Shown here piece by piece: positions 6,501 through 45,000 of a DNA stretch of 64,000 nucleotides; positions within the stretch are counted from its first letter, which is position 1; each line of letters starts with the position of its first letter. Made by a program: the position numbers and the translations under genes. The stretch lies in the NCBI RefSeq assembly GCF_009914755.1, contig NC_060933.1. One strand, given 5' to 3'. Source of the stretch: the human T2T-CHM13v2.0 reference genome, Homo sapiens. Below the pieces are notes generated by a model. That model was not told where the DNA came from and made no database searches. It saw only the letters and a program-made list of their open reading frames with translations.

Positions 6501-9500
6501 CCATTCCATTCCATTCCGGATGAATCCATTCCATTGCATTCCATTCCATTCCATTCCCCTGCACTCGGGTTGATTCCATTCCATTCCATTCCATTCCATT
6601 CCGTTCCATTCCATTCCATTCCATTCCATTCTGTTCAGGTTAATTCCATTCCATTCCATTCCATTCCATTCCATTCCATTCCATTCCATTCCATTCCATT
6701 CCATAGCAATCGAGTTGTTTCCATTGCATTCCATTCCATTCCATTCCATTGCATTCCATTGCATTCCATTCCCCTGCACTCAGGTTGATTCCATTCCATT
6801 CCATTCCATTCCATTCTATTCGCGTTAATTCCATTCCATTCCATTACATTACATTCCATTGCAATCGACTTGATTCCATTCCATTCCATTCCATTCCATT
6901 CAATTCAAGTCCTTTCCATTCCATTCCACTCGTGTTTATTCCATTTTATTAGTTTCCATTCCAATCCTTTCCCTTCCATTCCACTCTGGTTGATTCCATT
7001 CCTTTCCATTCCACTCGAATTCATTCCCTTCTATTCCACTCGGAATGATTCCATTCCATTCCGTTCCATTCCATTCCATTCGATTCTATTTCCTACCATT
7101 GCTTTCTATTCCGTACCATTCCATTCCATTCCATTCCATGCCATTCCACTCTGGTTGATTCCATTGCTTTCCATTCCATTTGGGTTGAATCCATTCCTTT
7201 CCATTCCATTCCATTCCATTCCATTCCATTGCACTAGGTTTGATTCCATTCCACTGCATTCCATTCCATTCCATTCCATTCCATTCCATTCCATTCCATT
7301 CCATTCCGTTCCATTCAGTTCCATTACATTCGGATTGATTCTTTTTAATTCCCTCAGACTCCATTACATTCCATTCCATTCGGGTACTTTCCATTCCATT
7401 CCATTCCATTCCATTCCATTCCACTGCATTATATTGCACTCGGGTTTATTGATTCCATTCCATTGCATTCCATTCCATTCCATTCCATTCCGGATGATTC
7501 CATTCCATTGCATTCCATTCTATTCCATTCCCCTGCACTCGGGTTGATTCCATTCCATTCCATTCCATTCCATTCAGTTCCGTTCCATTCCATTCCATTC
7601 CATTCTGTTCAGGTTAATTCCATTCCATTCCATTCCCTTCCATTCCATTCCATTCCATTCCATTGCAATCGAATTGATTCCATTGCATTCCATTTCATTC
7701 CATTCCATTGCATTCCATTCCATTCCTATCCCCTGCACTCAGGTTGATTCCATTCCATTCCATTCCATTCCATTCCATTCTATTCCATTCCATTCTATTC
7801 GCGGTAATTCCATTCCATTCCATTCCATTACCTTCCATTGCAATCGAGTTTATTCCATTCCATTCCGTTCCTTTCCATTCCATTCCATTCAAGTCCTTTC
7901 CATTCCATTCCAGTCGTGTTGATTCCATTTTATTAGTTTCCATTCCATTCCATTCCCTTCCATTCCACTCTGGTTGATTCCATTCCTTTCCATTCCACTC
8001 GAATACATTCCCTTCTATTCCACTCGGAATGATTCCATTCCATTCCGTTCCATTCCATTCCATTCCATTCCATTTCTTTCCATTCCATTCTATTCCGTAC
8101 CATTCCATTCCATTCCATTCCATTCCATTCCATTCCATGCCATTCCACTCGGGTTGATTCCATTGCTTTCCATTCCATTTGGGTTGAATCCATTCCATTC
8201 CATTCCATTCCATTCCATTCCATTCCATTCAATTGCACTAGGTTTGATTCCATTCCACTGCATTCCATTCCATTCCATTCCATTCCATTCCACTCCATTC
8301 CATTCCATTCCCCCGCACTCGGCTTCATTCCATTCCATTGCATTTACTTCCATTCCATTCCATTCCATTCCATTCCATTCCATTCCATTGCAATCGAGTT
8401 GATTCCATTCCATTCTTTCTATTCAATTCCGGATGATTCCATTCCATTGCCTTCAATTCCATTCCATTCCCCTGCACTCGGGTTGATTCCATTCCATTCC
8501 ATTCCATTCCATTCCATTCCATTCCATTTCATTCTATTCCATTTCTTTCCATTCCATTCTATTCCGTACCATTCCATTCCATTCCATTCCATTCTATTCG
8601 GGTTAATTCCATTCCACTCCATTCCATTCCATTCCATTCCATTCCATTCCATTCCATGCCATTCCACTCGGGTTGATTCCATTCCTTTCCATTCCATTCG
8701 AGTTGAATACATTCCAATCCATTCCATTGCATTCGATTCCATTCCATTGCACACGGGTTCATTCCATTCCATTCCATTCCATTCCATTGCAATCGAGTTG
8801 ATTCCATTACATTCCATTCAATTCCGGATGATTCCATTCCATTGCCTTCAATTCCATTCCATTCCCCTGCACTCGGGTTGATTCCATTCCATTCCATTCC
8901 ATTTCATTCCATTCCATATCGTTCCATTCCATTCTATTCCATACCATTCCATTCCATTCCATTCCATTCCATTCCATTCCATTCCATGCCATTCCACTCG
9001 GGTTGATTCCATTCCTTTCCATTCCATTCGAGTTGAATACATTCCAATCCATTCCATTGCATTCGATTCCATTCCATTGCACACGGGTTCATTCCATTCC
9101 ATTCCATTCCATTCCATTCCATTCCATTCCATTCCATTCCATTCGATTCCATTACATTGCACTCGGGTTGATTCCATTCCATTTCATTCCATTAAATTTC
9201 ATTCCACTCCATTCCATTCCATTTCATTCAATTCCATTCCATTCAATGCCATTCCATTCGTGTTTATTCCATTCCTTTCCATTCCATTCGAGTTGAACCC
9301 ATTCCATTCCATTCCATTCCATTCCATTCCATTCCGTTCCATTCCATTGCACACGGGTTCATTCCATTCCATTCCATTCCATTACATTACATTCCATTAC
9401 GTTACATTCCATTTCGTTCCTTTCAATTCTATTCCGTTCCATTCCATTCCATTCCCTTCCATTCCACTCTGGTTGATTCCATTCCTTTCCATTCCACTCG

Positions 9501-10389
9501 AATACATTCCCTTCTATTCCACTCGGAATGATTCCATTCCATTCCGTTCCATTCCATTCCATTCCATTCCATTTCTTTCCATTCCATTCTATTCCGTACC
9601 ATTCCATTCCATTCCATTCCATTCCATTCCATTCCATTCCATTCCATTCAATTCCATGCCATTCCACTCGGGTTGTTTCCATTGCTTTCCATTCCATTTG
9701 GGTTGAATCCATTCCATTCCATTCCATTCCATTCCATTCAATTGCACTAGGTTTGATTCCATTCCACTGCATTCCATTCCATTCCATTCCATTCCATTCC
9801 ACTCCATTCCATTCCATTCCCCCGCACTCGGGTTCATTCCATTCCATTGCATTTACTTCCATTCCATTCCATTCCATTCCATTCCATTCCATTAGACTCC
9901 ATTCCATGCCATTCCACTCGGTTTTATTCCATTCGTTTCCATTCCATTCGGGTTTTATCCATTGCATTCCATTCCATTCGATTCCATTACATTGCACTCG
10001 TGTTATTTCCATTCCATTCCATTCCATTCCATTCCATTCCATTCCATGCCATTCCACTCGGGTTGATTTCATTCCATTCCGTTCCATTCGAGTCGAACCA
10101 ATTCCATTCCATTCCATTCCATTCCATTCCATTCCAATCCATTGCACACGGGTTCATTCCATTCCATTCCATTCCATTCCATTCCATTTCGTTCCATTCC
10201 ATTCTATTCGGTACCATTCCATTCCATTCCATTCGGTACCATTCCATTCCATTCCATTCCAATCCATTCCATTCCATGCCATTCCACTTGGGTTGATTCC
10301 CTTCCTTTCCATTCCATTCGGGTTGAATCCATTCCATTCCATTCCATTCCATTCCATTCCATTCCATTCCATTCCATTCCATTCCATTC

Positions 10390-13300
10390 CTTTCAATTCC
10401 ATTGCACACGGGTTGGTTCCATTCCATTCCTTTCCGTTCCATTCCGGATGACTCCATTCCATTGCATTCCATTCCATTCCATTCCCCTGCACTCGGGTTC
10501 ATTACCTTCCATTCCATTTACTTCCATTCCATTCCATTCCATTCTATTCGGGTTAATTCCATTCCATTCCATTCCATTCCATTCCATTCCATTCCATTCC
10601 ATTCCATTCCATTCCATTCCATTCCATTGCAATCGAGTTGATTCCATTCCATTCCATTCAATTCCGGATGATTCCATTCCATTGCCTTCAATTCCATTCC
10701 ATTCCCCTGCACTCGGGTTGATTCCATTCCATTCCATTCCATTCCATTCCATTCCATTCCATTCCATTTCATTCCATTCCATTTCGTTCCTTTCCATTCT
10801 ATTCCTTTCCATTCCATTCCATTCCATTCCATTCCATTCCATTCCATTCCATGCCATTCCACTCGGGTTGATTCCATTCCTTTCCATTCCATTCGAGTTG
10901 AATCCATTCCAAACCATTCCATTCCATTCGATTCCATTCCATTGCACACGGGTTCATTCCATTCCATTCCATTCCATTCCATTCCATTCCATTCCATTCC
11001 ATTTCGTTCCATTCCATTATATTCCGTACCATTCCATTCCATTCCATTCCATTCCATTCCATTCCACTCCACTCCATGCCATTCCACTCGGGTTTATTCC
11101 ATTCCTTTCCATTCCATTCGGGTTGAATCCATTCCATTCCATTCCATTCCATTCGATTCCATTACATTGCACTCGGGTTGATTCCATTCAATTCCATTCC
11201 ATTCCATTCCACTCCATTCCATGCCATTCCACGCGGGTTTATTCCATTCCTTTCCATTCCATTCGTGTTGAATCCATTCCATTCCATTCCATTCCATTCG
11301 ATTCCATTACACTGCACTCGGGTTGATTCCATTCCATTCCATTCCATTCCATTTCATTCCATTCCATTCCATTCCATTCCATTCCATTCCATTCCATTCC
11401 ATGCCATTCCACTCGTGTTGATTCCATTCCTTTGCATTCCATTCGTGTTGAACCCATTCCATTCCATTCCATTCCATTGCACACGGGTTCATTCCATTCC
11501 ATTCCATTCCATTCCATTCCATTCCATTCCGTTCCATTCCATTCCATTCCATTCCATTCCATTCCATTTCGTTCCATTCCATTCTATTCTGTACCATTCC
11601 ATTCCATTCCATTCCACTCCATTCCATGCCATTCCACTCGGGTTTATTCCATTCCTTTTCATTCCATTTGGGTTGAATCCATTCCATTCCATTCCATTCC
11701 TTTCGATTCCATTATATTGCACACGGGTTGATTCCATTCCATTCCATTCCGTTCCATTCAGGATGACTCCATTCCATTGCATTCCATTCCATTCCATTCC
11801 CCTGCACTCGGGTTCATTACATTCCATTCCATTCCCATCCACTCCATTCCATTCCATTCCATTCCATTTCAATCGAGTTGATTCCATTCCATTCCATTCC
11901 ATTCCATTCAATTCCGGATGATTCCATTCCATTGCCTTCCATTCCACTCCATTCCCCTGCACTCGGGTTGATTCCATTCCATTCCATTCCATTCCATTCC
12001 ATTCCATTCCATTCCATTTCGTTCCATTCCACTCTATTCCGTACCATTCCATTCCATTCCTTTCCATTCCAATCCATGCTATTCCACTCGGGTTGATTCC
12101 ATTCCTTTCCATTCCATTCGAGTTGAATCCATTCCATTCCATTCCATTCCATTCCATTCCATTCCATTCCATTCCATTCCATTCCATTCCATTCCATTGC
12201 ACACGGGTTCATTTCATTCCATTCCATTCCATTCCATTCCATTCCATTTAGTTCCATTCCATTCTATTCCATACCATTCCATTCCATTCCATTCCATTCC
12301 ATTCCACTCCATTCCATGCTATTCCTCTCGGGTTTATTCCATTCCTTTCCATTCCATTCGGATTGAATCCATTCCTTTCCATTCAATTCCATTCCACTCG
12401 ATTCCATTACATTGCAGTCGTGTTGTTTCCATTCCATTCCATTCCATTCCATTTCATTCTATTCCATTCCATTCCATTCCATTCCATTCCATTCCATTCC
12501 ATTCCATGCCATTCCACTCGGGTTGATTCCATTCCTTTCCATTCCATTCGAGTTGAAACCATTCCATTCCATTCCATTCCATTCTATTCCATTCCATTCC
12601 AATCCATTGCACACGGGTTCATTCCATTCCATTCCATTCCATTCCATTCCATTCCATTCCACTTCGTTCCATTCCATTCTATTCCGTACCATTCCATTCC
12701 ATTCCATTCCATTCCATTCCATTCCATTCCATTCCATTCCTTTCAATTCCATTGCACACGGGTTGGTTCCATTCCATTCCTTTCCGTTCCATTCCGGATG
12801 ACTCCATTCCATTGCATTCCATTCCATTGCATTCCCCTGCACTCGGGTTCATTACCTTCCATTCCATTTACTTCCATTCCATTCCATTCCATTCTATTCG
12901 GGTTAATTCCATTCCATTCCATTCCATTCCATTCCATTCCATTCCATTCCATTCCATTGCAGTCGAGTTGATTCCATTCCATTGCATTCAATTCCGGATG
13001 ATTCCATTCCATTGCCTTCAATTCCATTCCATTCCCCTGCACTCGGGTTGATCCATTCCATTCCATTCCATTCCATTTCATTCCATTCCATTTCGTTCCT
13101 TTCCATTCTATTCCGTACCATTCCATTCCATTCCATTCCATTCCATTCCATTCCATTCCATTCCATGCCATTCCACTCGGGTTGATTCCATTCCTTTCCA
13201 TTCCATTCGAGTTGAATCCATTCCAATCCATTCCATTCCATTCGATTCTATTCCATTGCACACGGGTTCATTCCATTCCATTCCATTCCATTCCATTCCA

Positions 13301-14950
13301 TTCCATTCCATTCCATTTCGTTCCATTCCATTATATTCCGTACCATTCCATTCCATTCCATTCCATTCCATTCCATTCCATTCCACACCACTCCATGCCA
13401 TTCCACTCGGGTTTATTCCATTCCTTTCCATTCCATTCGGGTTGAATCCATTCCATTCCATTCCATTCCATTCGATTCCATTACATTGCACTCGGGTTGA
13501 TTCCATTCCATTCCATTCCATTCCATTCCACTCCATTCCATGCCATTCCACGCGGGTTTATTCCATTCCTTTCCATTCCATTCGTGTTGAATCCATTCCA
13601 TTCCATTCGATTCCATTACACTGCACTCGGGTTGATTCCATTCCATTCCATTCCATTCCATTTCGTTCCATTCCATTCCATTCCATTCCATTCCATTCCA
13701 TTCCATTCCATGCCATTCCACTCGTGTTGATTCCATTCCTTTGCATTCCATTCGTGTTGAACCCATTCCATTCCATTCCATTCCATTGCACACAGGTTCA
13801 TTCCATTCCATTCCATTCCATTCCATTCCATTCCGTTCCATTCCATTCCATTCCATTCCATTCCATTCCATTTCGTTCCATTCCATTCTATTCTGTACCA
13901 TTCCATTCCATTCCATTCCACTGCATTCCATGCCATTCCACTCTGGCTTATTCCATTCCTTTTCATTCCATTTGGGTTGAATCCATTCCATTCCATTCCA
14001 TTCCTTTCGATTCCATTATATTGCACACGGGTTGATTCCATTCCATTCCATTCCGTTCCATTCAGAATGACTCCATTCCATTGCATTCCATTCCATTCCA
14101 TTCCCCTGCACTCGGGTTCATTACATTCCATTCCATTCCCATCCACTCCATTCCATTCCATTCCATTCCATTTCAATCGAGTTGATTCCATTCCATTCCA
14201 TTCCATTCCATTCAATTCCGGATGATTCCATTCCATTGCCTTCCATTCCACTCCATTCCCCTGCACTCGGGTTGATTCCATTCCATTCCATTCCATTCCA
14301 TTCCATTCCATTCCATTCCATTTCGTTCCATTCCACTCTATTCCGTACCATTCCATTCCATTCCTTTCCATTCCAATCCATGCTATTCCACTCGGGTTGA
14401 TTCCATTCCTTTCCATTCCATTCGAGTTGAATCCATTCCATTCCATTCCATTCCATTCGATTCCATTCCATTGCACACGGGTTCATTTCATTCCATTCCA
14501 TTCCATTCCATTCCATTTAGTTCCATTCCATTCTATTCCATACCATTCCATTCCATTCCATTCCATTCCACTCCATTCCATGCTATTCCTCTCGGGTTTA
14601 TTCCATTCCTTTCCATTCCATTCGGATTGAATCCATTCCTTTCCATTCAATTCCATTCCACTCGATTCCATTACATTGCACTCGTGTTGTTTCCATTCCA
14701 TTCCATTCCATTCCATTTCATTCTATTCCATTCCATTCCATTCCATTCCATTCCATGCCATTCCACTCGGGTTGATTCCATTCCTTTCCATTCCATTCGA
14801 GTTGAAACCATTCCATTCCATTCCATTCCATTCTATTCCATTCCATTCCAATCCATTGCACACGGGTTCATTCCATTCCATTCCATTCCATTCCATTCCA
14901 TTCCATTCCGTTCCATTCCATTCTATTCCGTACCATTCCATTCCATTCCA
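10390..14950 (+). repeat. ~2.3-kb tandem duplication
   Basis: tttcaattccattgcacacgggttggttcc 10391/12741; attaccttcc 10501/12851; cccatccactcc ~11834/~14138; ccaatccatgct ~12069/~14373. Confidence 0.8.
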
Positions 14951-17900
14951 TTCCATTCCATTCCATTCCATTCCATTCCATGCCATTCCACTCGGTTTTT
15001 TCCATTCCTTTCCATTCCATTCGGGTTGAATCCATTCCTTTCCATTCCATTCCGTTCAATTCCATTCCATTGCACTCGGGTTGATTCCATTCCATTCCAT
15101 GCCATTCCATTTCATTCCGTTCCATTCCATTCCATTACATTCGGATTGATTCTTTTCAATTCCCTTACACTCCATTACATTCCATTCCATTCGGATAGTT
15201 TCCGTTCCATTCCATTCCATTCCACTCCATTGCATTGCACTCGGGTTGATAGATTCCATTCCATTCCATTCCATTCCATTCCATTCCATTCCATTCCGGA
15301 TGAATCCATTCCATTGCATTCCATTCCATTCCATTCCCCTGCACTCGGGTTGATTCCATTCCATTCCATTCCATTCCATTCCGTTCCATTCCATTCCATT
15401 CCATTCCATTCTGTTCAGGTTAATTCCATTCCATTCCATTCCATTCCATTCCATTCCATTCCATTCCATTCCATTCCATTCCATTGCAATCGAGTTGTTT
15501 CCATTGCATTCCATTCCATTCCATTCCATTGCATTCCATTGCATTCCATTCCCCTGCACTCAGGTTGATTCCATTCCATTCCATTCCATTCCATTCCGGA
15601 TGATTCCATTCCTTTGCCTTCCATTCCACCCCATTCCCCTGCACTCGGGTTGATTCCATTCCATTCCATTCCATTCCATTCCATTCCATTTCGTTCCATT
15701 CCACTCTATTCCGTACCATTCCATTCCATTCCTTTCCATTCCAATCCATGCTATTCCACTCGGATTGATTCCATTCCTTTCCATTCCATTCGAGTTGAAT
15801 CCATTCCATTCCATTCCATTCCATTCGATTCCATTCCATTGCACACGTGTTCATTCCATTCCATTCCATTCCATTCCATTCCATTCCATTCCATTCCATT
15901 TAGTTCCATTCCATTCTATTCCATACCATTCCATTCCATTCCATTCCATTCCACTCCATTCCATGCTATTCCTCTCGGGTTTATTCCATTCCTTTCCATT
16001 CCATTCGGGTTGAATCCATTCCATTCCATTCAATTCCATTCCACTCGATTCCATTACATTGCACTCGTGTTGTTTCCATTCCATTCCATTCCATTCCATT
16101 TCATTCCATTCCATTCCATTCCATTCCATTCCATTCCATTCCATTTCATTCCATTCCATTCCATTCCATTCCATTCCATTCCATTCCATTCCATGCCATT
16201 CCACTCGGGTTGATTCCATTCCTTTCCATTCCATTCGAGTTGAAACCATTCCATTCCATTCCATTCCATTCCATTCCAATCCATTGCACACGGGTTCATT
16301 CCATTGCATTCCATTCCATTCCATTCCATTCCATTCCATTCCATTCCATTTCTTTCCATTCCATTCTATTCCTTACCATTCCATTCCATTCCATTCCATT
16401 CCATGCCATTCCACTCGGGTTTATTCCATTCCTTTCCATTCCATTCGGGTTGAATCCATTCCTTTCCATTCCATTCCGTTCAATTCCATTCCATTGCACT
16501 CGGGTTGATTCCATTCCATTCCATGCCATTCCATTTCATTCCGTTCCATTCCATTCCATTACATTCGGATTGATTCTTTTCAATTCCCTTACACTCCATT
16601 ACATTCCATTCCATTCGGGTAGTTTCCGTTCCATTCCATTCCATTCCACTCCATTGCTTTGCACTCGGGTTGATTGATTCCATTACATTGCTTTCCATTC
16701 CATTCCATTCCATTCCGGATGAATCCATTCCATTGCATTCCATTCCATTCCATTCCCCTTCCCTCGGGTTGATTCCATTCCATTCCATTCCATTCCATTC
16801 CGTTCCATTCCATTCCATTCCATTCCATTCTGTTCAGGTTAATTCCATTCCATTCCATTCCATTCCATTCCATTCCATTCCATTCCATTCCATTCCATTG
16901 CAATCGAGTTGTTTCCATTGCATTCCATTCCATTCCATTCCATTGCATTCCATTGCATTCCATTCCCCTGCACTCAGGTTGATTCCATTCCATTCCATTC
17001 CATTCCATTCTATTCGCGTTAATTCCATTCCATTCCATTCCATTACATTCCATTGCAATCTACTTGATTCCATTCCATTCCATTCCATTCCATTTAATTC
17101 AAGTCCTTTCCATTCCATTCCACTCGTGTTTATTCCATTTTATTAGTTTCCATTCCAATCCTTTCCCTTCCATTCCACTCTGGTTGATTCCATTCCTTTC
17201 CATTCCACTCGAATTCATTCCCTTCTATTCCACTCGGAATGATTCCATTCCATTCCGTTCCATTCCATTCCATTCGATTCTATTTCCTACCATTGCTTTC
17301 TATTCCGTACCATTCCATTCCATTCCATTCCATGCCATTCCACTCTGGTTGATTCCATTGCTTTCCATTCCATTTGGGTTGAATCCATTCCATTCCATTC
17401 CATTCCATTCCATTCCATTCCATTGCACTAGGTTTGATTCCATTCCACTGCATTCCATTCCATTCCATTCCATTCCATTCCATTCCGTTCCATTCAGTTC
17501 CATTACATTCGGATTGATTCTTTTTAATTCCCTCAGACTCCATTACATTCCATTCCATTCGGGTACTTTCCATTCCATTCCATTCCATTCCATTCCATTC
17601 CACTGCATTATATTGCACTCGGGTTTATTGATTCCATTCCATTGCATTCCATTCCATTCCATTCCATTCCGGATGATTCCATTCCATTGCATTCCATTCT
17701 ATTCCATTCCCCTGCACTCGGGTTGATTCCATTCCATTCCATTCCATTCTATTCCGTTCCGTTCCATTCCATTCCATTCCATTCTGTTCAGGTTAATTCC
17801 ATTCCATTCCATTCCCTTCCATTCCATTCCATTCCATTCCATTGCAATCGAATTGATTCCATTGCATTCCATTTCATTCCATTCCATTGCATTCCATTCC

Positions 17901-20900
17901 ATTCCTATCCCCTGCACTCAGGTTGATTCCATTCCATTCCATTCCATTCCATTCCATTCCATTCTATTCCATTCCATTCTATTCGCGGTAATTCCATTCC
18001 ATTCCATTCCATTACCTTCCATTGCAATCAAGTTGATTCCATTCCATTCCGTTCCTTTCCATTCCATTCCATTCAAGTCCTTTCCATTCCATTCCAGTCG
18101 TGTTGATTCCATTTTATTAGTTTCCATTCCATTCCATTCCCTTCCATTCCACTCTGGTTGATTCCATTCCTTTCCATTCCACTCGAATACATTCCCTTCT
18201 ATTCCACTCGGAATGATTCCATTCCATTCCGTTCCATTCCATTCCATTCCATTCCATTTCTTTCCATTCCATTCTGTTCCGTACCATTCCATTCCATTCC
18301 ACTCCATTCCATTCCATTCCATTCCATTCCATTCCATTCCATTCCATGCCATTCCACTCGGGTTGATTCCATTGCTTTCCATTCCATTTGGGTTGAATCC
18401 ATTCCATTCCATTCCATTCCATTCCATTCCATTCAATTGCACTAGGTTTGATTCCATTCCACTGCATTCCATTCCATTCCATTCCATTCCATTCCACTCC
18501 ATTCCATTCCATTCCCCCGCACTCGGGTTCATTCCATTCCATTGCATTTACTTCCATTCCATTCCATTCCATTCCATTCCATTCCATTCCATTCCATTGC
18601 AATCGAGTTGATTCCATTCCATTCTTTCTATTCAATTCCGGATGATTCCATTCCATTGCCTTCAATTCCATTCCATTCCCCTGCACTCGGGTTGATTCCA
18701 TTCCATTCCATTCCATTCCATTCCATTCCATTCCATTTCATTCTATTCCATTTCTTTCCATTCCATTCTATTCCGTACCATTCCATTCCATTCCATTCCA
18801 TTCCATTCCATTCCATTCCATTCTATTCGGGTTAATTCCATTGCACTCCATTCCATTCCATTCCATTCCATTCCATTCCTTTCCATGCCATTCCACTCGG
18901 GTTGATTCCATTCCTTTCCATTCCATTCGAGTTGAATACATTCCAATCCATTCCATTGCATTCGATTCCATTCCATTGCACACGGGTTCATTCCATTCCA
19001 TTCCATTCCATTCCATTGCAATCGAGTTGATTCCATTACATTCCATTCAATTCCGGATGATTCCATTCCATTGCCTTCAATTCCATTCCATTCCCCTGCA
19101 CTCGGGTTGATTCCATTCCATTCCATTCCATTTCATTCCATTCCATATCGTTCCATTCCATTCTATTCCATACCATTCCATTCCATTCCATTCCATTCCA
19201 TTCCATTCCATTCCATTCCATGCCATTCCACTCGGGTTGATTCCATTCCTTTCCATTCCATTCGAGTTGAATCCATTCCATTCCATTCCATTCCATTCGA
19301 TTCCATTCCATTGCACACGGGTTCATTCCATTCCATTCCATTCCATTCCATTCCATTCTATTTCGTTCCATTCCATTCTATTCCGTACCATTCCATTCCT
19401 TTCCATTCCATTCCATTCCATTCCACTCCATTCCATGCCATTCCACTCGGGTATATTCCATTCCTTTCCATTCCATTCGGGTTGAATCCATTCCATTCCA
19501 TTCCATTCCATTCGATTCCATTACATTGCACTCGGGTTGATTCCATTCCATTCCATTCCATTACATTTCATTCCATTCCATTCCATTCCATTTCATTCAA
19601 TTCTATTCCATTCAATGCCATTCCATTCGTGTTTATTCCATTCCTTTCCATTCCATTCGAGTTGAACCCATTCCATTCCATTCCATTCCATTCCATTCCG
19701 TTCCATTCCATTGCACACGGGTTCATTCCATTCCATTCCATTACATTACATTACATTTCGTTCCTTTCAATTCTATTCCGTTCCATTCCATTCCATTCCA
19801 CTGCATTCCATTCCATTAAATTCCCCTGCACTTGGTGTGATTCCGTTCCATTCTATTCCATTCCATTCCTTTCCATTCCATTCAATTCCATTCTATTCGG
19901 GTTAATTCCATTCCATTCCATTCCATTCAATTCCATTCCATTGCAATCGAGTTGATTCCATTGCATTCCATTCCATTCCATTCCAGTCCTTTCCATTCCA
20001 TTCCACTCGGGTTGATTCCATTCTATTCCTTTCCATTCCATTCGATTCCATTCCATTCCACTCTGGTTGATTCCATTCCTTTTCATTCCACTCGAAAACA
20101 TTTCCTTCTATTCCACTCGGAATGATTCCATTCCATTCCATTTCGTTCTTTCCATTCTATTCCGTACCATTCCATTCCATTCCATTCCATTCCATTCCAT
20201 TCCATGCCATTCCACTCGCGTTGATTCCATTCCTTTCCATTCCATTCGAGTTAAATCCATTCCAATCCATTCCATTCCATTCGATTCCATTCCATTGCAC
20301 ACGGGTTCATTCCATTCCATTCTATTCCATTCCATTCCATTCCATTCCATTTCGTTCCATCCCATTCTATTCCGTACCATTCCATTCCATTCCATTCCAT
20401 TCCATTCCACTCCATTCCATGCCATTCCATTCTGGTTTATTCCATTCCTTTCCATTCCATTCGGGTTGAATCCATTCCATTCCATTCCATTCCATTCAAT
20501 TCCATTACATTGCACTCGGGTTGATTCCATTCCATTCCATTACATTACATTTCATTCCATTCCACTCCATTCCATGCCATTCCACGCGGGTTTATTCCAT
20601 TCCTTTCCATTCCATTCGTGTTGAATCCATTCCATTCCATTCCATTCCATTCGATTCCATTACACTGCACTCGGGTTGATTCAATTCCATTCCATTCCAT
20701 TACATTTCATTCCATTCCATTCCATTCCATTCCATTCCATTCCATTCCATTGCACACGGGTTCATTCCATTCCATTCCATTCCATTCCATTGCATTCCAT
20801 TCCATTCCGTTCCATTCCATTCCATTCCTTTCTGTTCAGGTTAATTCCATTCCATTCCTTTCCCTTCCATTCCATTCCATTCCATTCCATTGCAATCGAG

Positions 20901-23900
20901 TTGATTCCATTGCATTCTATTCCATTACATTCCATTGCAATCCATTCCATTCCATTCCCCTGCACTCAGGTTGATTCCATTCGATTCCATTCCATTCCAT
21001 TCCATTCCATTCCGTTCCATTCCATTCCATTCCATTCTATTCGCTTTAATTGCATTCCATTAAATTCCATTGCATTCCATTGCAATCGAGTTGATTTCAT
21101 TCCTTTCCGTTCCATTCCATTCCATTCCATTCCATTTCGTTCCATTCCATTCTATTCCGTACCATTCCATTCCATTCCATTCCATACCATTCCATTCCAT
21201 TCCGTTCCATTCCATTCCATGCCATTCCACTCGGGTTGATTCCATTGCTTTCCATTCCATTTGGGTTGAATCCATTCCATTCCATTCCATTCCATTCCAT
21301 TCCATTCCATTCCATTCCATTCCATTCCATTCCATTGCACTAGGTTTGATTCCATTCCACTGCATTCCATTCCATTCCATTCCATTCCGTTCCATTCCAT
21401 TCCATTACATTCGGATTGATTGTATTCAATTCCCTTACACTCCATTTCATTCCATTCCATTCGGGTTGTTTCCATACCATTCCATTCCATTCTATTCCAT
21501 TTCGTTCCATTCCATTCTATTCGGTACCATTCCATTCCATTCCATTCCATTCCATTCCATGCCATTCCACTTGGGTTGATTCCCTTCCTTTCCATTCCAT
21601 TCGGGTTGAATCCATTCCATTCCATTCCATTCCATTCCTTTCCATTCCATTACACACGGGTTGATTCCTTTCCATTCCTTTCTGTTCCATTCCGGATGAC
21701 TCCATTCCATTCCATTCCATTCCATTCCATTCCATTCCCCTGCCCTCGGGTTCATTACATTCCATTCCATTTACTTCCATTCCATTCCATTCCATTCAAT
21801 TCCATTCTATTCGGGTTAATTCCATTCCATTCCATTCCATTCCATTCCATTCCATTGCATTCCATTGCAATCAAGTTGATTCCATTCCATTCCATTCAAT
21901 TCCGGATGATTCCATTCCATTGCCTTCAATTCCATTCCATTCCCCTGCACTCGGATTGATTCCATTCCATTCCATTCCATTCCATTCCATTCCATTCCAT
22001 TTCATTCCATTCCATTTCGTTCCATTCAATTCTTTTGCGTTCCATTCCATTCCATTCCATTCCATTCCATTCCATTCCTTTCCATTCTATTCGGGTTAAT
22101 TCCATTCCATTCCATTCCATTCCATTCCATTCCATTCCGTTCCATTCAATTCCATTACATTCGGATTGATTCTTTTTAATTCCCTTACACTCCATTACAT
22201 TCTATTCCATTCGGGTAGTTTCCATACCATTCCATTCCATTCCACTGCATTCTATTGCACTCGGGTTGATTGATTCCATTCCATTGCATTCCATTCCATT
22301 CCATTCCATTCCGGATGATTCCATTCCATTGCATTCCGTTGCATTCCATTCCCCTGTACTCGGGTTGATCCCATTCCATTGCATTCCATTCCATTCCATT
22401 CCATTCCATTCCATTCCATTCCGTTCCGTTCCATTCCATTCCCTTCCATTCTGTTCAGGTTAATTCCATTCCATTCCATTCCCTTCCATTCCATTCCATT
22501 CCATTCCATTCCATTCCATTCCATGCCATTCCACTCGGGTTGATTCCATTCCTTTCCATTCCATTCGAGTTGAACCCATTCCATTCCATTCCATTCCATT
22601 GCATTCCACTCGGGTTGATTCCATTCCTTTCCATTCCATTCGGGTTGAAACCATTCCATTCCATTCCATTCCTTTCGATTCCATTCCATTTCACTCGGGT
22701 TGATCCCATTCCATTGCATTCCATTCCATTCCATTGCATTCCATTCCGTTCCATTCCATTCCATTACATTCGTATTGATTCTATTCAATTCCCTTACTCT
22801 CCATTACATTCCATTCCTTTCGGGTTGTTTCCATTCCATTCCATTCCACTCCATTCCATTTCAATCGGGTGATTCCATTACATTCCATTGCATTCCATTC
22901 CATTCCGTATGATTCCATTCCATTGCATTCCATTCCATTCCATTCCCTTGCACTCGGGTGGATTCCATTCTATTCCATTCCATTCCATTCCATTCCATTC
23001 CATTCCATTCCATTCCATTCTATTCGGGTTAATTTCATTCCATTCCATTCCATTCCCTTCCATTGCATTCCATTCCATTCCATTCCATTCCATTGAAATC
23101 GAGTTGATTCCATTCCATTCCATTCCATTCCATTCTATTCCGTTCCATTCCATTCAATTACATTCGTATTGATTCTTTTTAATTCCCTTACACTCCATTA
23201 CATTCCATTCCATTCGGGTACTTTCCATTCCATTCCATTCCATTCCACTGCATTCTATTGCACTCGGGTTGATTGATTCCATTCCATTGCATTCCATTCC
23301 ATTCCATTCCCCTGAACTCGGGTGGATTCCATTCCATTCCATTCCATTCCATTCCGTTACATTCCATTCCATTCCATTCTGTTCAGGTTAATTCCATTCC
23401 ATTCCATTCCCTTCCATTCCATTCCAATCTATTCCATTCCATTCCATTCCATTCCCCTGCACTCAGTTTGATTCCATTCCATTCCATTCCATTCCATTCC
23501 GTTCCATTCCATTCCAATCCATTGTATTCGCATTAATTCCATTCAATTCCATTCCATTACATTCCATTGCAGTCGAGTTGATTCCATTCCATTCCATTCC
23601 ATTCCATTCAAGTCCTTTCCATTCCATTCCACTCGTGTTGATTCCATTTTATTAGTTTCCATTCCATTCCATTCCCTTCCATTCCACTCTGGTTGATTCC
23701 ATTCCTTTCCATTCTACTCGAATGCATTCCCTTCTATTCCACTCTGATTGATTCCATTCCATTCCGTTCCATTCCATTCCATTTCGTTCCATTCCATTCC
23801 ATTCCATTCCATTCCTTTCCATTCCATTCCGTTCCATTCCATTCCATTCCATTCCATTTCTTTCCATTCCATTCTATTCCATACCATTCCATTCCATTCC

Positions 23901-25746
23901 GTTCCATGCCATTCCACTCGGGTTGATTCCATTGCTTTCCATTCCATTTGGGTTGAATCCATTCCATTCCATTCCATTCCATTCCATTCCATTCCATTGC
24001 ATTCCATTCCATTGCACTAGGATTGATTCCATTCCACTGCATTCCATTCCATTCCATTCCATTCCATTCCGTTCCATTCCATTCCATTACATTCGTATTG
24101 ATTGTATTCAATTCCCTTACACTCCATTACATTCCATTCCACTCGGGTTGTTTCCATTCCATTCCATTCCATTCCACTCCATTCCATTGCAGTCGGGTTG
24201 ATTCCATTCCATTCCATTCCATTCCCTTCCATTCCATTTCGTTCCATTCCATTCTATTCCATACCATTCCATTCCATTCCATTCCATTCCACTCCATTGC
24301 ATTCCATTCCATTCCATGCCATTCCACTCGGGTTGATTCCTTTCCATTCCATTCCATTCGGGTTGAAACCATTCCATTCCTTTCTATTCCATTCCATTCC
24401 ATTCCGGATGATTGCATTCCATTGCCTTCCATTCAATTGCATTCCCCTGCACCCGGGTTGATTCCATTCAATTCCATTCCATTCCATTCCGTTCCATTCC
24501 ATTGCATTCCATTCCATTCCATTCCATTCCATTCCACTCGGGTTGATTCCATTCCTTTCCATTCCATTCGGGGTGAAGCCTTTCCATTCCATTCCATTCC
24601 TTTCGATTCCATTCCATTGCACTCGGGTTGATCCCATTCCATTGCATTCCATTCCATTCCATTACATTCCATTCCATTCCATTCCGTTCCATTCAATTCC
24701 ATTACATTCGGATTGATTCTATTCAATTCCCTTACACTCCATCACATTCCATTCCATTCGGGTTGTTTCCATTCCATTCCATTCCATTGCATTCCATTGC
24801 ATTCCATTCCATTCCATTCCGTATGATTCCATTCTATTGCATTCTATTCCATTCCATTCCCCTGCAGTCGGGTGGATTCCATTCTATTCCATTCCATTCC
24901 ATTCCATTCCATTCCATTCCATTCCATTCCATTGAAATCGAGTTGATTCCATTCCATTCCATTCCATTCCATTCCATTCCATTCCATTCTATTCGGGTTA
25001 ATTCCATTCCATTCCATTCCATTCCATTCCATTCCATTCCATTCCATTCTATTAGGGTTAATTCCATTCCATTCCATTCCATTCCATTCCATTCCATTCC
25101 ATTCCATTGCAATCGAGTTGATTCCATTCCATTCCATTCCATTCAATTCCATTGAACTCGGGTTGATTCCATTCCATTCCATGCCATTCCATTTCATTCC
25201 AATCCATTGCCTTCCATTCCATTCCATTCCTCTGCACTCAGGTTGATTCCATTCCATTCCTTTCCATTCCATTCCATTCCATTCCATGCCATTCCACTCG
25301 GGTTGATTCCATTACTTTCCATTACATTCGAGTTGAATCCATTCCATTCGATTCCATTCCATTCGATTCCATTCCATTGCTCACGGGTTCATTCCATTCC
25401 ATTCCATTCCATTCCATTCCATTTCGTTCCATTCCATTCTCTTCCGTAGTATTCCATTCCACTCCATTCCACTCCATTCCATGCCATTCCACTCGGGTTT
25501 ATTCCATTCCTTTCCATTCCATTCGGGTTGAATTCATTCCATTCCATTCCACTCCATTCCATTCAATTCCATTACATTGCAATCGGGTTGATTCCATTGC
25601 ATTCCATTCCATTTCAATCCATTCCCTTCCATTCCATTTCATTCCATTCCATTCCATTCCATTCCATTCCATTCCATTCCATGCCATTCCACTGGGGTTG
25701 ATTCCATTACTTTCCATTCCATTCTAGTTGAACCCATTCCATTCCA

Positions 25747-25793
25747 TTCCATTCCATTCCATTCCATTGCACACGGAATGGAATGGAATGGAA
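25747..25793. other. Satellite strand-switch (inversion) breakpoint with perfect inverted repeat (19-bp arms, 9-nt spacer)
   Basis: ...attccattccattgcacac|ggaatggaatggaatggaaacaaccc...; 25747-25765 ttccattccattccattcc pairs with 25775-25793 ggaatggaatggaatggaa; spacer attgcacac. Confidence 0.95.
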
Positions 25794-28700
25794 ACAACCC
25801 GAATGGAATGGAATGTAATGGAGTGTAAGGGAATTGAATACAATCAATCCGAATGTAATGGAATGGAATGGAACGGAATGGAATGGAATGGAATGCAGTG
25901 GAATGGAATCAAACCTAGTGCAATGGAATGGAATGGAATGGAATGGAATGGAATGGAATGGAAGGGATTGGATTCAACCCAAATGGAATGGAAAGCAATG
26001 GAATCAACCCCAGTGGAATGGCATGGAATGGAATGGAATGGAATGGAATGGAATGGTACAGAATAGAATGGAATGGAACGAAATGGAATGGAATGGAATG
26101 GAATGGAACGGAATGGAATTAACGCGAATAGAATGGAATGGAATGTAATGGAACGGAATGGAATGGAATGGGATGGAATGGAATCAATCTGAGTGCAGGG
26201 GAATGGAATGGAATGGAATGCAATGGAATGGAATGGAATGGAATGGAATGCAATGGAATCAACTAGATTGCAATGGGATGGAATGGAATGGAATGGAATG
26301 GAAGGGAATGGAATGGAATGGAATTAACCTGAACAGAATGGAATGGAATGGAATGGAACGGAATGGAAGGGAATGGAATGGAATGGAATTAACCTGAACA
26401 GAATGGAATAGAATGGAATGGAATGGAATGGAATGGAATGGAATGGAATGGAATGGAATGGAATGCAATGGAATGGGATCAACCCGAGTGCAGGGGAATG
26501 GAATGGAATGGAATGCAATGGAATGGAATCAATCAACCCGAGTGCAATAGAATGCAGTGGAATGGAATGGAATGGAATGGAAAGTACCCGAATGGAATGG
26601 AATGTAATGGAGTGTAAGGGAATTAAAAAGAATCAATCCGAATGTAATGGAATGGAATTGAAAGGAAAGGAATGGAAAGGAATGGAACGGAATGGAACGG
26701 AATGAAATGGAATGGCATAGAACGGAATGGAATCAACCCGAGCGCAATGGAATGGAATGGAATGGAATGGAATGGATTCAACCCGAATGGAATGGAAAGG
26801 AATGGAATAAACCCGAGTGAAATGGCATGGAATGGAATGGAATGGAATGGAATGGTATGGAGTAGAATGGAATGGAACGAAATGGAATGGAATGGAATGG
26901 AATGGAATGGAATGGAATGGAATGAACCCGTGAGCAATGGAATGGAATGGAATGGAATGGAATGGAATGGAATGGAATCAACCCGATTGCAATGTAATGG
27001 AGTGGAATGGAATGGAATGGAGTGGAAACAACCCGAATGGAATGGAATGTAATGGAGAGTAACGGAATTGAATAGAATCAATACGAATGTAATGGAATGG
27101 AATGGAACGGAATGGAATGCAATGGAATGGAATGGAATGCAATGGAATGGGATCAACCCGAGTGAAACGGAATGGAATCGAAAGGAATGGAATGGAATGG
27201 AATGGTTTCAACCCGAATGGAATGGAAAGGAATGGAATCAACCCGAGTGGAATGGAATGGAATGGAATGGAATGGAATGGAATGGAATGGAATGGAATGG
27301 AATGGAATGGGTTCAACTCGAATGGAAGGGAAAAGAATGGAATCAACCCGAGTGGAATGGCATGGAATGGAATGAATGGAATGGAATGGAATGGAATGGA
27401 ATGGAATGGATTCAACCCGAATGGAATGGAAGGGAATGGAATAAACCCGAGTGGAATGGCATGGAATGGAGTGGAATGGAATTGAATGGAAGGGAATGGT
27501 ACGCAATAGAATGGAATGGAACGAAATGGAATGGAATGGAATGGAATGGAATGGAATGAACCCGTGTGCAATTGAATGGAATCGAATGGAATGGAATGCA
27601 ATGGAATGGATTCAACTAGAATGGAATGGAAAGGAATGGAATCAACCCGAGTGGAATGGCATGGCATGGAATGGAATGGAATGGAATGGAAAGGATTGGT
27701 ACGGAATAGAATGGAATGGAACGAAATGGAATGGAATGGAATGGAATGGAATGGAATAGAATGGAATCCACCCGATTGCAGGGGAATGGAATGGAATGGA
27801 ATGGAATGGAATGGAATGGATTCAACCCGAATGGAATGGAAAGGAATGGAATCAAACCGAGTGGATTGGCATGGAATGGAATGGAATGGAATGGAATGGT
27901 AGGGAATAGAATGGAATGGAACGAAATGGAATGGAATGGAATGGAATGGAATGGAATGGAATGGAATGGAATCAACCTGAGTGCAATGGAATGGAGTGGA
28001 AGGGAATGTACTGGAACGGAAACAACACGAATGGAATGGAATGTAATGGAGTGTAAGGGAATTGAATACAATCAATCCGAATGTAATGGAATGGAATGGA
28101 ACGGAATGGAATGGAATGCAATGGAATGGAATGGAATGGAATGGAATGGAATGGAATGAAATGGAATGGCAGGGAATGGAATGGAATCAACCCGAGTGCA
28201 ATGGAATGGAATGGAATGGAATGGAATGGAATGGAATGGATTCAACCCGAATGGAATGGATAGGAATGGAATAAACCCGAGTGGAATGGCATGGAATGGA
28301 ATGGAATGGAATGGAATGTTACGGAATAGAATGGAATGGAACGAAATGGAATGGAATGGAATGGAATGGAATGGAATGGAATGGAATGGAATGGAATCAA
28401 CCTGAGTGCAATGGAATGGAATGGAATGGAATGGAATGGAATGGAAACAACCCGAATGGAATGGAATGTAATGGAGTGTAAGGAATTGAATACAATCAAT
28501 CCGAATGTAATGGAATGGAATGGAACGGAATGGAATGGAATGGAATGCAGTGGAATGGAATCAAACCTAGTGCAATGGAATGGAATGGAATGGAATGGAA
28601 TGGAATGGATTGGATTCAACACAAATGGAATGGAAAGCAATAGAATCAACCCGAGTGGAATGGCATGGAATGGAATGGAATGGAATGGAATGGAATGGAA

Positions 28701-42067: not shown

Positions 42068-45000
42068 CCCGAATAGAATGGAATGGAATGGAACGGAATG
42101 GAACGGAACGGAACGGAACGGAATGGAATGGAATGGAATGGAATGGAATGGTATGGAATGGAATGGAATGGAATGGAGTCAACGCGAGTGCAGGGGAATG
42201 TAATGGAACGGAATGCAATGGAATGGAATCATCCGGAATGGAATGGAATGGAATGGAATGGAATGGAATGGAATGGAGTCAACCCGAGTGCAATGGAATG
42301 GAGTGGAATGGAATGGAATGGAATGGAACAACCCGAATGGAATGGAATGTAATGGAGAGTAAGGGAGTTGAATAGAATCAATCCGAATGTAATGGAATGG
42401 AACGGAATGGAATGGAATGGAATGGAATGGAATGGAATGGAATGGAATGGAATGCAAAGGAATGGAATCAACCCGAGTACAATGGAATGGAATGGAATGG
42501 AATGGAATGGAATGGAATGGAATCCACCCGAGTGCAATGGAATGGAGAGGAATGGAATGGAATGGAATGGAAACTACCCGAATGGAATGGAATGTAATGG
42601 AGTGTAAGGGAATTGAATAGAATCAATCCGAATGGAACGGAATGGAATGGAACGGAATTTAATGTAATGGAATGGAATGGAATCAACCCGAGTGCAGGGG
42701 AATGGAATGGAATGGAATGCAATGGAATGGAATCATCCGGAATGGAATGTAATGGAATGCAATGGAATGGAATGGAATGGAATCAACCCGAGTGCAATGG
42801 AATGGAGTGAAATGGAATGGAATGGAATCGAATGGAAACAACCAGAATGGATTGGAATATAATGGAGTGTAAGGGAGTTGAATAGAATCAATCTGAATGT
42901 AATGAAATGGAATGGAACGGAATGGAATGCAATGGAATGGAATGGAATGGAATGGAATGCAATGGAATGGAATCAACCCGAGTACAGGGGAATGGAATGG
43001 AATGGAATGCAATGGAATGGAATCATCCGTAATGGAATGGAAAGCAATGGAATGGAATGGAATGGAATGGAATGGAATGGAATGGAATGGAATGGAATGG
43101 AATCAACTCGATTGCAATCGAATGGAATGGAATGGAATTAACCCGAATAGAATGGAATGGAATGGAATGGAATGGAACGGAAAGGAATGGAATGGAACGG
43201 AATGGAATGGAATGGAATGGAACGGAACGGAATGGAATGGAATGGAATTGAATGGAATGGAATGGAATCAACCCAACTGCAGGGGAATGGAATGGAATGG
43301 AATGCAATGGAATGGAATCATGCGGAACGGAATGCAATGGAATGGAATGGAATCAACACGAGTGCAATGGAATGGATTGGAATGGAATGGAATGGAATGG
43401 AATGGAACTACCCGAATGGAATGGAATGTAATGGAGAGTAAGGGAGTTGAATAGAATCAATCCGAATGTAATGGAAAGGAATGGAAAGGAATGGAATGGA
43501 ATGGAATGGAATGCAATGGAATGGAATCAAACCGAGTACAATGGATTGGAATGGAATGGAATGGAATGGAATGGAATGGAATCAACACGAGTGCAATGGA
43601 ATGGAGTGGAATGGAATGGAATGGAATGGAACAACGCGAATGGAATGGAATGTAATGGAGAGTAAGGGAGTTGAATAGAAACAATCCGAATGTAATGGAA
43701 TGGAACGGAATGGAATGGAATGGAATGGAATGGAATGGAATGGAATGGAATGCAATGGAAGGGAATCAACCCGAGTACAATGGAATGGAATTGAATGGAA
43801 TGGAATGGAATGGAATGGAAACAATGGAATGGAATCAACCCGAGTGCAATGGAATGGAGAGGAATGGAATGGAATGGAATGGAAACTACCCGAATGGAAT
43901 GGAATGTAATGGAGTGTAAGGGAATTGAATAGAATCAATCCAAATGGAATGGAATGGAATGGAACGGAATGTAAAGAATGGAATGGAATGGAATCAACGC
44001 GAGTGCAGGGGAATGGAATGGAATGGAATGCAACGGAATGGAATCATCCGGAATGGAATGGAATGGAATGCAATGGAATGGAATGGAATGGAATCAACCC
44101 GAGTGCAATGGAATGGAGTGAAATGGAATGGAATGGAATGGAAACAACCAGAATGGATTGGAATATAATGGAGTGTAAGTGAATTGAATAGAATCAATCT
44201 GAATGTAATGAAATGGAATGGAACGGAATGGAATGGAATGGAATGGAATTGAATGGAATGGAATGGAATGCAATGGAATGGAATCAACCCGAGTGCAATC
44301 GAATGGAATCGAATGGAATGGAATGCAATGGAATGGATTCAACTTGAATGGAATGGAAAGAATGGAATCAACACGAGTGGAATGGCATGGATTGGAATGG
44401 AATGGAATGGAATCAACCCGAGTACAGGGGAATGGAATGGAATGGAATGCAATGGAATGGAATCATCCGTAATGGAATGGAAAGGAATGCAGTGGAATGG
44501 AATGGAATGGAATGGAATCAACTCGATTGCAATCGAATGGAATGGAATGGAATTAACCCGAATAGAATGGAATGGAATGGAATGGAACGGAACGGAATGG
44601 AATGGAATGGAATGGAATGCAACGGAACGGAACGGAATGGAATGGAATGGAATGGAATGGAATGGAATGGAATGGAATCAACGCGAGTGCACGGGAATGG
44701 AATGGAATGGAATGCAATGGAATGGAATCTTCCGGAATGGAATGGAATGGAATGGAATGGAATGGAATGGAATGGAATCAACCCGAGTGCAATGGAATGG
44801 AGTGGAATGGAATGTAATGGAATGGAACAACCCGAATGGAATGGAATGGAATGGAGAGTAAGGGAGTTGAATAGAATCAATCTGAATGGAATGGAATGGA
44901 ATGGAACGGAATGGAATTGAATGGAATGGAATGGAATGCAATGGAATGGAATCAACCCGAGTGCAATGGAATGGAGAGGAATGGAATGGAATATAATGGA

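What the first reader, a model, noticed from the sequence alone, without database searches (positions are those of the whole stretch)
25740..25800. Single clean satellite inversion breakpoint with 2-bp microhomology
Seen: the left arm ends inside the motif cattgcacacgg, which elsewhere continues as gttcattcc. The right arm starts inside the GGAAT run upstream of ggaaacaacccg; uninterrupted copies of that context are at ~28400-28455 and ~32266-32320. The shared GG at 25775-25776 is the only overlap, with no inserted or transposon sequence. Known: T2T assemblies show strand switches inside HSat3, especially the chr9 array. Inference: the junction arose by end-joining or template switching rather than via a TE.
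Basis: partly seen in the sequence, partly recalled or inferred. Interest (0 to 1): 0.8.

Follow-up and report, generated by a model that had tools for sequence, protein, structure and literature searches.

The report
Amplified strand-switch junction in chr9 HSat3
The head-to-head flip in this chromosome 9 satellite is real and clean, but it is one of about 85 inherited copies of a single old junction spread through the array, a kind of feature already reported for this region.

Summary

It is not a private breakpoint. All copies lie on chr9 between 52.3 and 76.4 Mb, in both orientations, and the reversed-pattern control gave 0.

All 30 loci fetched (29 other copies plus the window's own) flip strand at the k-mer. 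They share a roughly 0.5-2 kb module across the junction at a median 98% identity. The same flanks match nothing else in the window above about 85%. The twin copy 10.6 Mb away is 100% identical over 3.1 kb, which fits the published CHM13 9qh+ multi-megabase duplication.

The best reading is one old non-homologous joining that was then co-amplified with the array. A 2-bp overlap is expected by chance in 14% of random joins, so it does not identify the repair pathway. A mirror copy about 1.2 kb to the left hints at a fold-back origin but is not decisive.

Strand switches in this array are already published. Their identity by descent was not found in print.

The parts
1..25776 (.). Left arm: HSat3-type satellite in (CATTC)n orientation. 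Positions 1 to about 21000 form a domain with roughly 10.2-kb higher-order periodicity. Positions from about 21000 to 25776 are more diverged.
   Evidence: TRF period-5 CCATT array at 6-25768. GC skew about -0.64. k-mer spacings of 10179 and 2304. Best hits of 1-kb tiles are 93-97% up to 21 kb and 83-88% after that.
25764..25800 (+). Junction 37-mer (family J). It is unique in the window and repeated across the chr9 array.
   Evidence: 1 copy in the window. In the assembly: 72 exact copies (45 forward, 27 reverse) and 85 with up to 3 mismatches (49 forward, 36 reverse), all on contig C9. Reversed-pattern control 0/0.
25765..25776 (+). Truncated left motif CATTGCACACGG, cut after the second G.
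   Evidence: All 28 other copies in the window continue GT...; this one continues AATGG.
25775..25776 (.). GG shared by both parental contexts (2-bp overlap).
   Evidence: Parental contexts read. The chance of 2 bp or more is 0.138 in 200,000 simulated joins.
25777..64000 (.). Right arm: the same satellite in (GGAAT)n orientation. It starts three GGAAT units before GGAAACAACCC. 25.8-33.5 kb is a diverged zone; 34-64 kb is more homogeneous.
   Evidence: TRF GGAAT array at 25775-63978. GC skew about +0.62. Tile best hits are 86-91% and then mostly 88-96%.
25213..26119 (.). Junction module conserved among the family copies (about -564 to +343 relative to the junction).
   Evidence: In most fetched copies a contiguous HSP at 95-98% identity spans the junction (q[-386 or -564 .. 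+119 to +408]); in L025 it stops 85 bases short, and L004/L023 carry it in two pieces. Median pairwise substitution identity is 98.3% over -380..+100.
26410..26978 (.). Second colinear conserved piece of the right arm (+634 to +1202), shared with roughly a third of the fetched copies after a variable stretch.
   Evidence: HSPs such as q[634..1138]->s[609..1113] at 96-99% in L001, L002, L005, L006, L007, L008, L010, L012, L014 and L024. Part of this output was cut from view.
24745..24775 (-). Inverted copy of the right-arm start (three GGAAT units then GGAAACAACCC), about 1.0 kb left of the junction. It is a possible remnant of a fold-back template.
   Evidence: Minus-strand copy at 24760 with the same three GGAAT units. 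The equivalent copy lies 1060-1215 bases left of the junction in 11 of the 19 other 10-kb loci; the window's own nearest copy is at -1001. 350-bp identity reaches 92-94% in seven of the 30 loci, but only 80.8% in the window copy.
25716..25835 (+). Quasi-palindrome across the junction. As a single strand it folds into a long hairpin.
   Evidence: DNA fold gives -34.3 kcal/mol against -14.4 +/- 2.75 for 200 shuffles, z = -7.2.

Best explanation
Window position 25775/25776 is one copy of an identical-by-descent strand-switch junction (called J here) inside the large HSat3 array of chromosome 9.

Inferred: the junction formed once, when two HSat3 positions in opposite orientation were joined directly, without filler. 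One break lay inside a CATTGCACACGG|GTTCATTCC motif. The other lay in the GGAAT run before GGAAACAACCC.

Shown: the junction sits in a roughly 0.5-2 kb module that is present about 85 times in both orientations across 24 Mb of the array.

Inferred: it was carried along as the array expanded by duplications ranging from about 10-20 kb to several megabases, some of them inverted. Flanks beyond the module were reshuffled by unit gains and losses.

Shown by the 100%-identical twin and by colinear spacing: the window's copy was last copied by the multi-megabase duplication described for this assembly.

The junction has no known function. Its physical consequences are that the G-rich strand changes sides there, and that the site is a quasi-palindrome able to form a hairpin.
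For: - Copy number: 72 exact and 85 (up to 3 mismatches) copies of the 37-mer, all on C9 at 52.34-76.36 Mb, with control 0/0.
- 100-bp probe: 40 candidates scored of 91. Of these, 39 are full-length at 95-100% and differ by 5-bp unit indels.
- All 30 of 30 fetched loci, including the window's own, show a complete CATTC-to-GGAAT switch at the k-mer.
- The junction-spanning module is 95-98% identical to the window in the fetched copies. Median pairwise identity is 98.3% over -380..+100. The same flanks match nothing else in the window above about 85%.
- In the tree of the 30 copies, forward and reverse copies are interleaved, for example L027r/L028f and L022r/L030f.
- L003 at C9:67.744 Mb is 100% identical over 3.1 kb.
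- Spacing of copies at 54.93-60.69 Mb is repeated at 65.50-71.35 Mb (offset about 10.6 Mb). Spacing at 52.3-54.5 Mb is repeated at 61.1-63.3 Mb (offset about 8.74 Mb).
- Nurk et al. (PMC9186530, passages read) report a recent multi-megabase tandem HSat3 duplication on chr9 in this assembly and a mosaic inversion structure in HSat arrays.
- The Altemose et al. preprint (10.1101/2021.07.12.452052, section 7 read) reports over 200 inversion breakpoints in arrays that include the chr9 HSat3B5 array.
Against:
- Shared colinear span does not grow smoothly with core identity: Spearman 0.05, p = 0.53 over 190 pairs. Only the 8 near-identical pairs share long flanks. A short module spread by gene conversion rather than by segmental duplication is therefore not excluded.
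- Over -750..+130 the window copy is only 91-92% identical to most others. Its homology to most other copies stops at about -400 to -550, so it is a divergent member.
- No reads, other human haplotypes or ape genomes could be examined. The age of the junction and whether it varies among people are unknown.
Confidence: 0.85

Rival explanations
1. Origin sub-model: J arose as a fold-back (inverted duplication). A 3' end or nascent strand at the CATTGCACACGG site re-primed on the complementary strand about 1.2 kb behind it, using the GG. It then copied backwards, so the right arm began as a mirror of the left arm beyond a roughly 1.2-kb spacer.
For: - A reverse-complement copy of the right-arm start lies 1060-1215 bases left of the junction in 11 of the 19 other 10-kb loci. 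It lies about 1.0 kb left in the window (24760).
- The right arm aligns from its first base to that mirror copy: 93.8-94.0% over 369-698 bp in L001, L005 and L006, and 91% over 710 bp in L024.
- Over 350 bp the mirror copy is the best match in 7 loci, at 92-94%.
- Patchy bins of 90-96% reach about 1.25 kb in L012, L016, L017 and L019.
- By my own average's figures, the first 1.25 kb scores about 83% for mirror copies against about 78% for other copies.
Against: - The unit is a common sub-repeat. Direct copies elsewhere reach 91-98%.
- Mirror identity (at most 94%) is lower than identity between junction copies (98%), so the arms would have had to diverge before amplification.
- In the window's own copy the mirror is only 80.8% identical.
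- The loci share ancestry, so they are not independent observations.
Confidence: 0.35
2. This is a private, recent two-break inversion or rejoining that happened at this place.
For: The junction is single and clean within the 64-kb window.
Against: There are 72 exact copies elsewhere on chr9 with the same flanking module. No high-identity mirror or parental sequence lies nearby.
Confidence: 0.02
3. The same junction formed repeatedly and independently at a sequence-directed hotspot, for example hairpin-driven template switching at the CACACGG motif.
For: The site folds strongly as a hairpin. The 2026 preprint 10.64898/2026.07.22.740206 (passages read) interprets the switches as stochastic by-products of array expansion.
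Against: - 27 intact copies of the left motif in the window's left arm are not switched.
- Junction copies share about 1 kb of flank at 98%, while generic units are 80-85% alike.
- The number of GGAAT units after the junction is the same in all 85 copies.
Confidence: 0.03
4. It is an assembly or library artefact, such as a chimeric fold-back read.
For: Satellite arrays are hard to assemble. A head-to-head junction is the shape that fold-back chimeras give.
Against: - The arms are not mirror images: there is no dominant reverse-complement diagonal, and the best reverse-complement identity of the flanks is 80-85%.
- 13 of the 85 copies carry their own substitutions, and flanks differ among copies.
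- Nurk et al. (PMC9186530, passages read) report that Strand-seq and Hi-C show no misorientations.
Confidence: 0.02

Closest known systems
Inversion breakpoints (strand switches) of the chr9 HSat3B5 array in T2T-CHM13 (Altemose et al. preprint 10.1101/2021.07.12.452052; 'mosaic inversion structure' in Nurk et al., PMC9186530)
   Same: Same array, same assembly and same kind of feature. The window's junction is one of those switches. 85 J plus 11 J2 C-to-G junctions imply about 190 or more switches in all, in line with 'over 200'.
   Different: The passages I read count switches but do not describe their sequences. Here most clean C-to-G switches prove to be copies of one junction.
Population surveys of chr9 HSat3 orientation switches (preprints 10.64898/2026.09.03.749043 and 10.64898/2026.07.22.740206, passages read)
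   Same: They report about 129 switches per haplotype, and a switch number that scales with array length (r = 0.90).
   Different: The second preprint reads the switches as stochastic by-products of expansion. Co-amplification of a few inherited junctions would give the same correlation without new inversions. Their supplements were not visible to me.
Fold-back inversions, that is inverted duplications with a short spacer made by template switching or hairpin-capped breaks (general knowledge, recalled)
   Same: Head-to-head junction, no filler, 0-4 bp microhomology, and a mirror copy about 1.2 kb back from the junction.
   Different: Mirror identity is only 81-94% and lies within a repetitive unit. 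No near-perfect palindrome arms are present.
Inversion inside the active alpha-satellite array of chr1 (Altemose et al. preprint, section 7)
   Same: An orientation change inside a single satellite array.
   Different: That is one large (1.7 Mb), polymorphic inversion. It is not a junction amplified tens of times.

Membership tests
HSat3 (CATTC)n-derived satellite, chr9 array (HSat3B5) | Pentameric CATTC/GGAAT repeat interspersed with diverged motifs | tested here: met
   TRF period 5, 5156 and 7653 copies, 73% matches.
HSat3 (CATTC)n-derived satellite, chr9 array (HSat3B5) | Location inside the chr9 pericentromeric array | tested here: met
   The window is C9:57102001-57166000. All family copies lie at C9 52.3-76.4 Mb.
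HSat3 (CATTC)n-derived satellite, chr9 array (HSat3B5) | Subfamily-specific B5 marker k-mers | not tested
   No marker set was at hand. The B5 label is taken from the Altemose preprint's statement about the chr9 array.
Strand-switch (inversion) breakpoint within a satellite array | Abrupt, complete change of repeat orientation | tested here: met
   Seen in 30 of 30 loci.
Microhomology-mediated junction (MMEJ / MMBIR-type) | Microhomology longer than random joining would give | tested here: not met
   2 bp observed. P(2 bp or more) = 0.138 in 200,000 simulated joins.
Microhomology-mediated junction (MMEJ / MMBIR-type) | Templated insertions or several switches at the junction | tested here: not met
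   No extra bases lie between the two parental contexts.
Fold-back inverted duplication | Right arm is the reverse complement of the left arm beyond a short spacer | tested here: inconclusive
   Mirror copy about 1.0-1.2 kb left of the junction, 81-94% over 350 bp, patchy to 1.25 kb. Direct copies can be equally similar.
Transposon-mediated rearrangement | TE or foreign sequence at the junction | tested here: not met
   The arrays abut within 6 bases, and those bases belong to the left motif.

The most novel reading that the evidence does not exclude
Nearly all clean C-to-G orientation switches of the 24-Mb chr9 HSat3 array descend from one ancestral junction: 85 J copies, plus 11 copies of J2, whose junction reads four bases shorter.

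The 'mosaic inversion structure' would then be an amplified module rather than hundreds of separate inversions. Switch number would scale with array length because junctions are copied with the array.

The junction k-mers and their private variants would serve as lineage markers for reconstructing how the 9q12 heterochromatin block expanded and why it varies (9qh+).
Probability: 0.6. Interest if true: 0.5.

Novelty: already known. Interest (0 to 1): 0.3.

Why it matters
Strand switches in the chr9 HSat3 array are a published feature of the complete human genome, so this junction is not a discovery in itself.

What the check adds is that the breakpoint is not a local event. It is a marker inherited in about 85 copies.

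If this holds in other haplotypes, a handful of junction k-mers could trace the duplication history of the largest satellite block in the human genome. They could also separate old from recent expansions (such as 9qh+). And they could replace the idea of frequent new inversions with co-amplification of a few old ones.

The result also shows that the 2-bp overlap cannot be used to name a repair pathway.

Tried and rejected
- Mirror-image test of the two arms. 31-mer diagonals gave no dominant diagonal. Blast of the 3-kb flanks gave only 80-85% reverse-complement hits. A recent perfect palindrome is rejected.
A first anchored-extension script let the anchored end slide and gave meaningless right-arm extents. 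One search replaced it.
- Global alignments of 5-kb arms broke at unit indels and understated homology. Chained HSPs were used instead.
- The generic short-spacer G-to-C pattern found only 20 intervals and misses family K, so it is not a census. No G-to-C family with J's copy number was found (K has 30 copies).
- K is not J's exact reciprocal. Its G-arm ends in a complete CAACCCGAGTGCA motif rather than at the complement of J's cut.
- There is no overall correlation between core identity and shared span.
- The Altemose Science paper could not be opened under the PMC id I recalled for it.
- PMC11526998 has no mention of inversions.
- Seven literature searches turned up no sequence-level description of junction families: the listings suggested none, and passages read in six of the papers describe none. 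Preprint supplements are closed.
Full report
**Observation**

The window is one HSat3-type satellite that changes orientation exactly once.
- GC skew is about -0.64 from 1 to 25000 and about +0.62 from 26001 to 64000.
- Tandem Repeats Finder reports a CCATT array at 6-25768 and a GGAAT array at 25775-63978.
- Among 200-bp tiles, only the two that overlap the junction contain both motifs.

The sequence reads ...CCATTCCATTGCACACGG|AATGGAATGGAATGGAAACAACCC....

- CATTGCACACGG occurs 29 times. The other 28 copies all continue GT (19 as GTTCATTCC), and only the copy at 25765 continues AATGG.
- GGAATGGAAACAACCC occurs 10 times, including 28438 and 32305. Three copies are inverted in the left arm.
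- The overlap is exactly GG at 25775-25776, and nothing is inserted.

**Significance of the 2-bp overlap**

I joined 200,000 random pairs of positions from the two arms. Of these, 13.8% had 2 bp or more of overlap and 2.4% had 3 bp or more. The GG therefore says nothing about the pathway beyond 'direct joining'.

**Not a palindrome**

The right arm is not the mirror of the adjacent left arm.
- There is no dominant reverse-complement diagonal.
- The best reverse-complement hits of the 3-kb flanks are 80-85%.
- The junction lies in a zone from about 21 to 34 kb that matches the rest of the window at only 83-91%.
- On either side lie more homogeneous domains: 93-97% for most tiles on the left, with a roughly 10.2-kb period, and mostly 88-96% on the right.

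**The key result**

In the window's own assembly:
- The 37-mer occurs 72 times exactly (45 forward, 27 reverse), and 85 times with up to 3 mismatches (49 forward, 36 reverse).
- All copies are on contig C9 between 52.34 and 76.36 Mb.
- The reversed pattern occurs 0 times.
- A 100-bp probe gave 39 full-length matches at 95-100% among the 40 candidates scored of 91. They differ mainly by gain or loss of one pentamer.

I fetched 30 loci: 20 at 10 kb, including the window's own, and 10 at 3.1 kb.
- All 30 flip from CATTC to GGAAT at the k-mer.
- In most of the fetched copies a contiguous alignment at 95-98% spans the junction, typically from -386 or -564 to between +119 and +408. In L025 it stops 85 bases short of the junction, and L004 and L023 carry it in two pieces. 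About a third of the copies have a second colinear piece at +634..+1202 (part of whose output was cut from view).
- Median pairwise substitution identity over -380..+100 is 98.3%. For the window's copy against the others it is 98.1%.
- Generic units of this satellite are only 80-85% alike.

This is identity by descent, not recurrence.

**How it spread**

- Spacing between the 85 copies ranges from 9.5 kb to 1.12 Mb, with a median of 167 kb. There is no regular period.
- Forward and reverse copies are interleaved both on the map and in the tree.
- Both orientations of J read as C-to-G on the plus strand, so a G-to-C switch must lie between any two neighbouring copies.
- One such family, K (found in L013), has 27 exact copies and 30 with up to 3 mismatches, all on C9. 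One K copy lies 58 kb left of the window's junction.
- K lies inside only 27 of the 84 J-J intervals, so other G-to-C families must exist.
- Colinear homology between copies has a median of about 840 bp on the left and about 160 bp on the right, up to the first unit indel.
- Only the 8 near-identical pairs share several kilobases. Overall, identity and shared span are uncorrelated (Spearman 0.05). Spread of a short module by conversion therefore cannot be excluded for the older copies.

**The most recent step**

The last copying step is clear. L003 at 67.744 Mb is 100% identical to the window over 3.1 kb. Copy spacing at 54.93-60.69 Mb recurs at 65.50-71.35 Mb, and spacing at 52.3-54.5 Mb recurs at 61.1-63.3 Mb. 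[quoted passage not shown] (PMC9186530, passages read).

**Share of all switches**

A strict generic C-to-G pattern gave 358 intervals genome-wide. The rows shown listed only chr7 (2 sites) and chr9. A second family, J2, has 11 copies.

The arithmetic 49x5 + 36x2 + 11x~3.5 + 3 comes to about 358. This suggests that J and J2 account for nearly all clean C-to-G switches. It is an estimate, because the listing was truncated. The matching G-to-C pattern is not a census.

**Origin**

The junction could come from a two-break inversion or from a fold-back.

In favour of a fold-back:
- A reverse-complement copy of the right-arm start lies 1060-1215 bases to the left in 11 of the 19 other 10-kb loci, and about 1.0 kb to the left in the window.
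- The right arm aligns to it from its first base, at up to 94% over 370-700 bp.
- Patches of 90-96% reach about 1.25 kb.

Against:
- The unit is a common sub-repeat, and direct copies reach 91-98%.
- Mirror identity is below the identity between junction copies.
- The loci are not independent observations.

I put the fold-back origin at about 0.35.

**Physical property**

The 120 bases around the junction fold as single-stranded DNA at -34.3 kcal/mol, against -14.4 +/- 2.75 for shuffles (z = -7.2). Any head-to-head CATTC/GGAAT join would do this.

**Comparison with print**

- The Altemose et al. preprint (section 7 read) states that arrays including the chr9 HSat3B5 array contain over 200 inversion breakpoints.
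- Preprint 10.64898/2026.09.03.749043 (passages read) reports about 129 switches per haplotype.
- Preprint 10.64898/2026.07.22.740206 (passages read) reports hundreds of switches whose number correlates with array length (r = 0.90), and calls them stochastic by-products of expansion.
- Seven searches turned up no description of the junction sequences or of their shared descent in the listings or in the passages I read.

**Verdict**

The feature is real, ordinary for this array and already known as a class. The breakpoint is an amplified heirloom rather than a single local event, and the microhomology carries no mechanistic weight.

Noticed in passing
window 1-21000 and 34000-64000: The two arms have different higher-order structure. 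On the left, rare k-mers recur at about 10.18 kb and 2.3 kb, and most 1-kb tiles match at 93-97%. On the right beyond 34 kb, tiles match at 12-23 kb offsets, mostly at 88-96%. The 21-34 kb zone around the junction is the least homogeneous, at 83-91%.
   Followed up: partly
L013 at about +3370 from its junction (C9:52,957,865); nearest copy to the window at C9:57,069,698, about 32 kb before the window start: A G-to-C junction family (K) has 27 exact copies and 30 with up to 3 mismatches, all on chr9. In L013, J and K flank a GGAAT-oriented segment of only 3.4 kb, inside a 21.2-kb tandem duplicate.
   Followed up: partly
own assembly C9, e.g. 52,748,574; 11 sites: A second C-to-G junction family (J2) reads like J without four bases at the join. 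Whether it derives from J by deletion or arose independently was not tested, because no sequence was fetched.
   Followed up: no
own assembly C9 52.3-63.3 Mb versus 61.1-71.4 Mb: Junction spacing shows two colinear duplicated blocks, with offsets of about 8.74 Mb and about 10.6 Mb. The duplication reported for this assembly is therefore not a single simple tandem copy on this evidence.
   Followed up: partly
own assembly C7 58.73-59.04 Mb: There are four clean orientation switches: C-to-G at 58,725,948 and 59,037,544, and G-to-C at 58,746,830 and 59,010,650. Their junction strings are reverse complements of each other in pairs, which suggests a nested palindromic arrangement.
   Followed up: no
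L005 (C9:65.01 Mb): This junction copy lacks about 430-550 bases of the left module relative to the others. It is the outlier of the tree.
   Followed up: no
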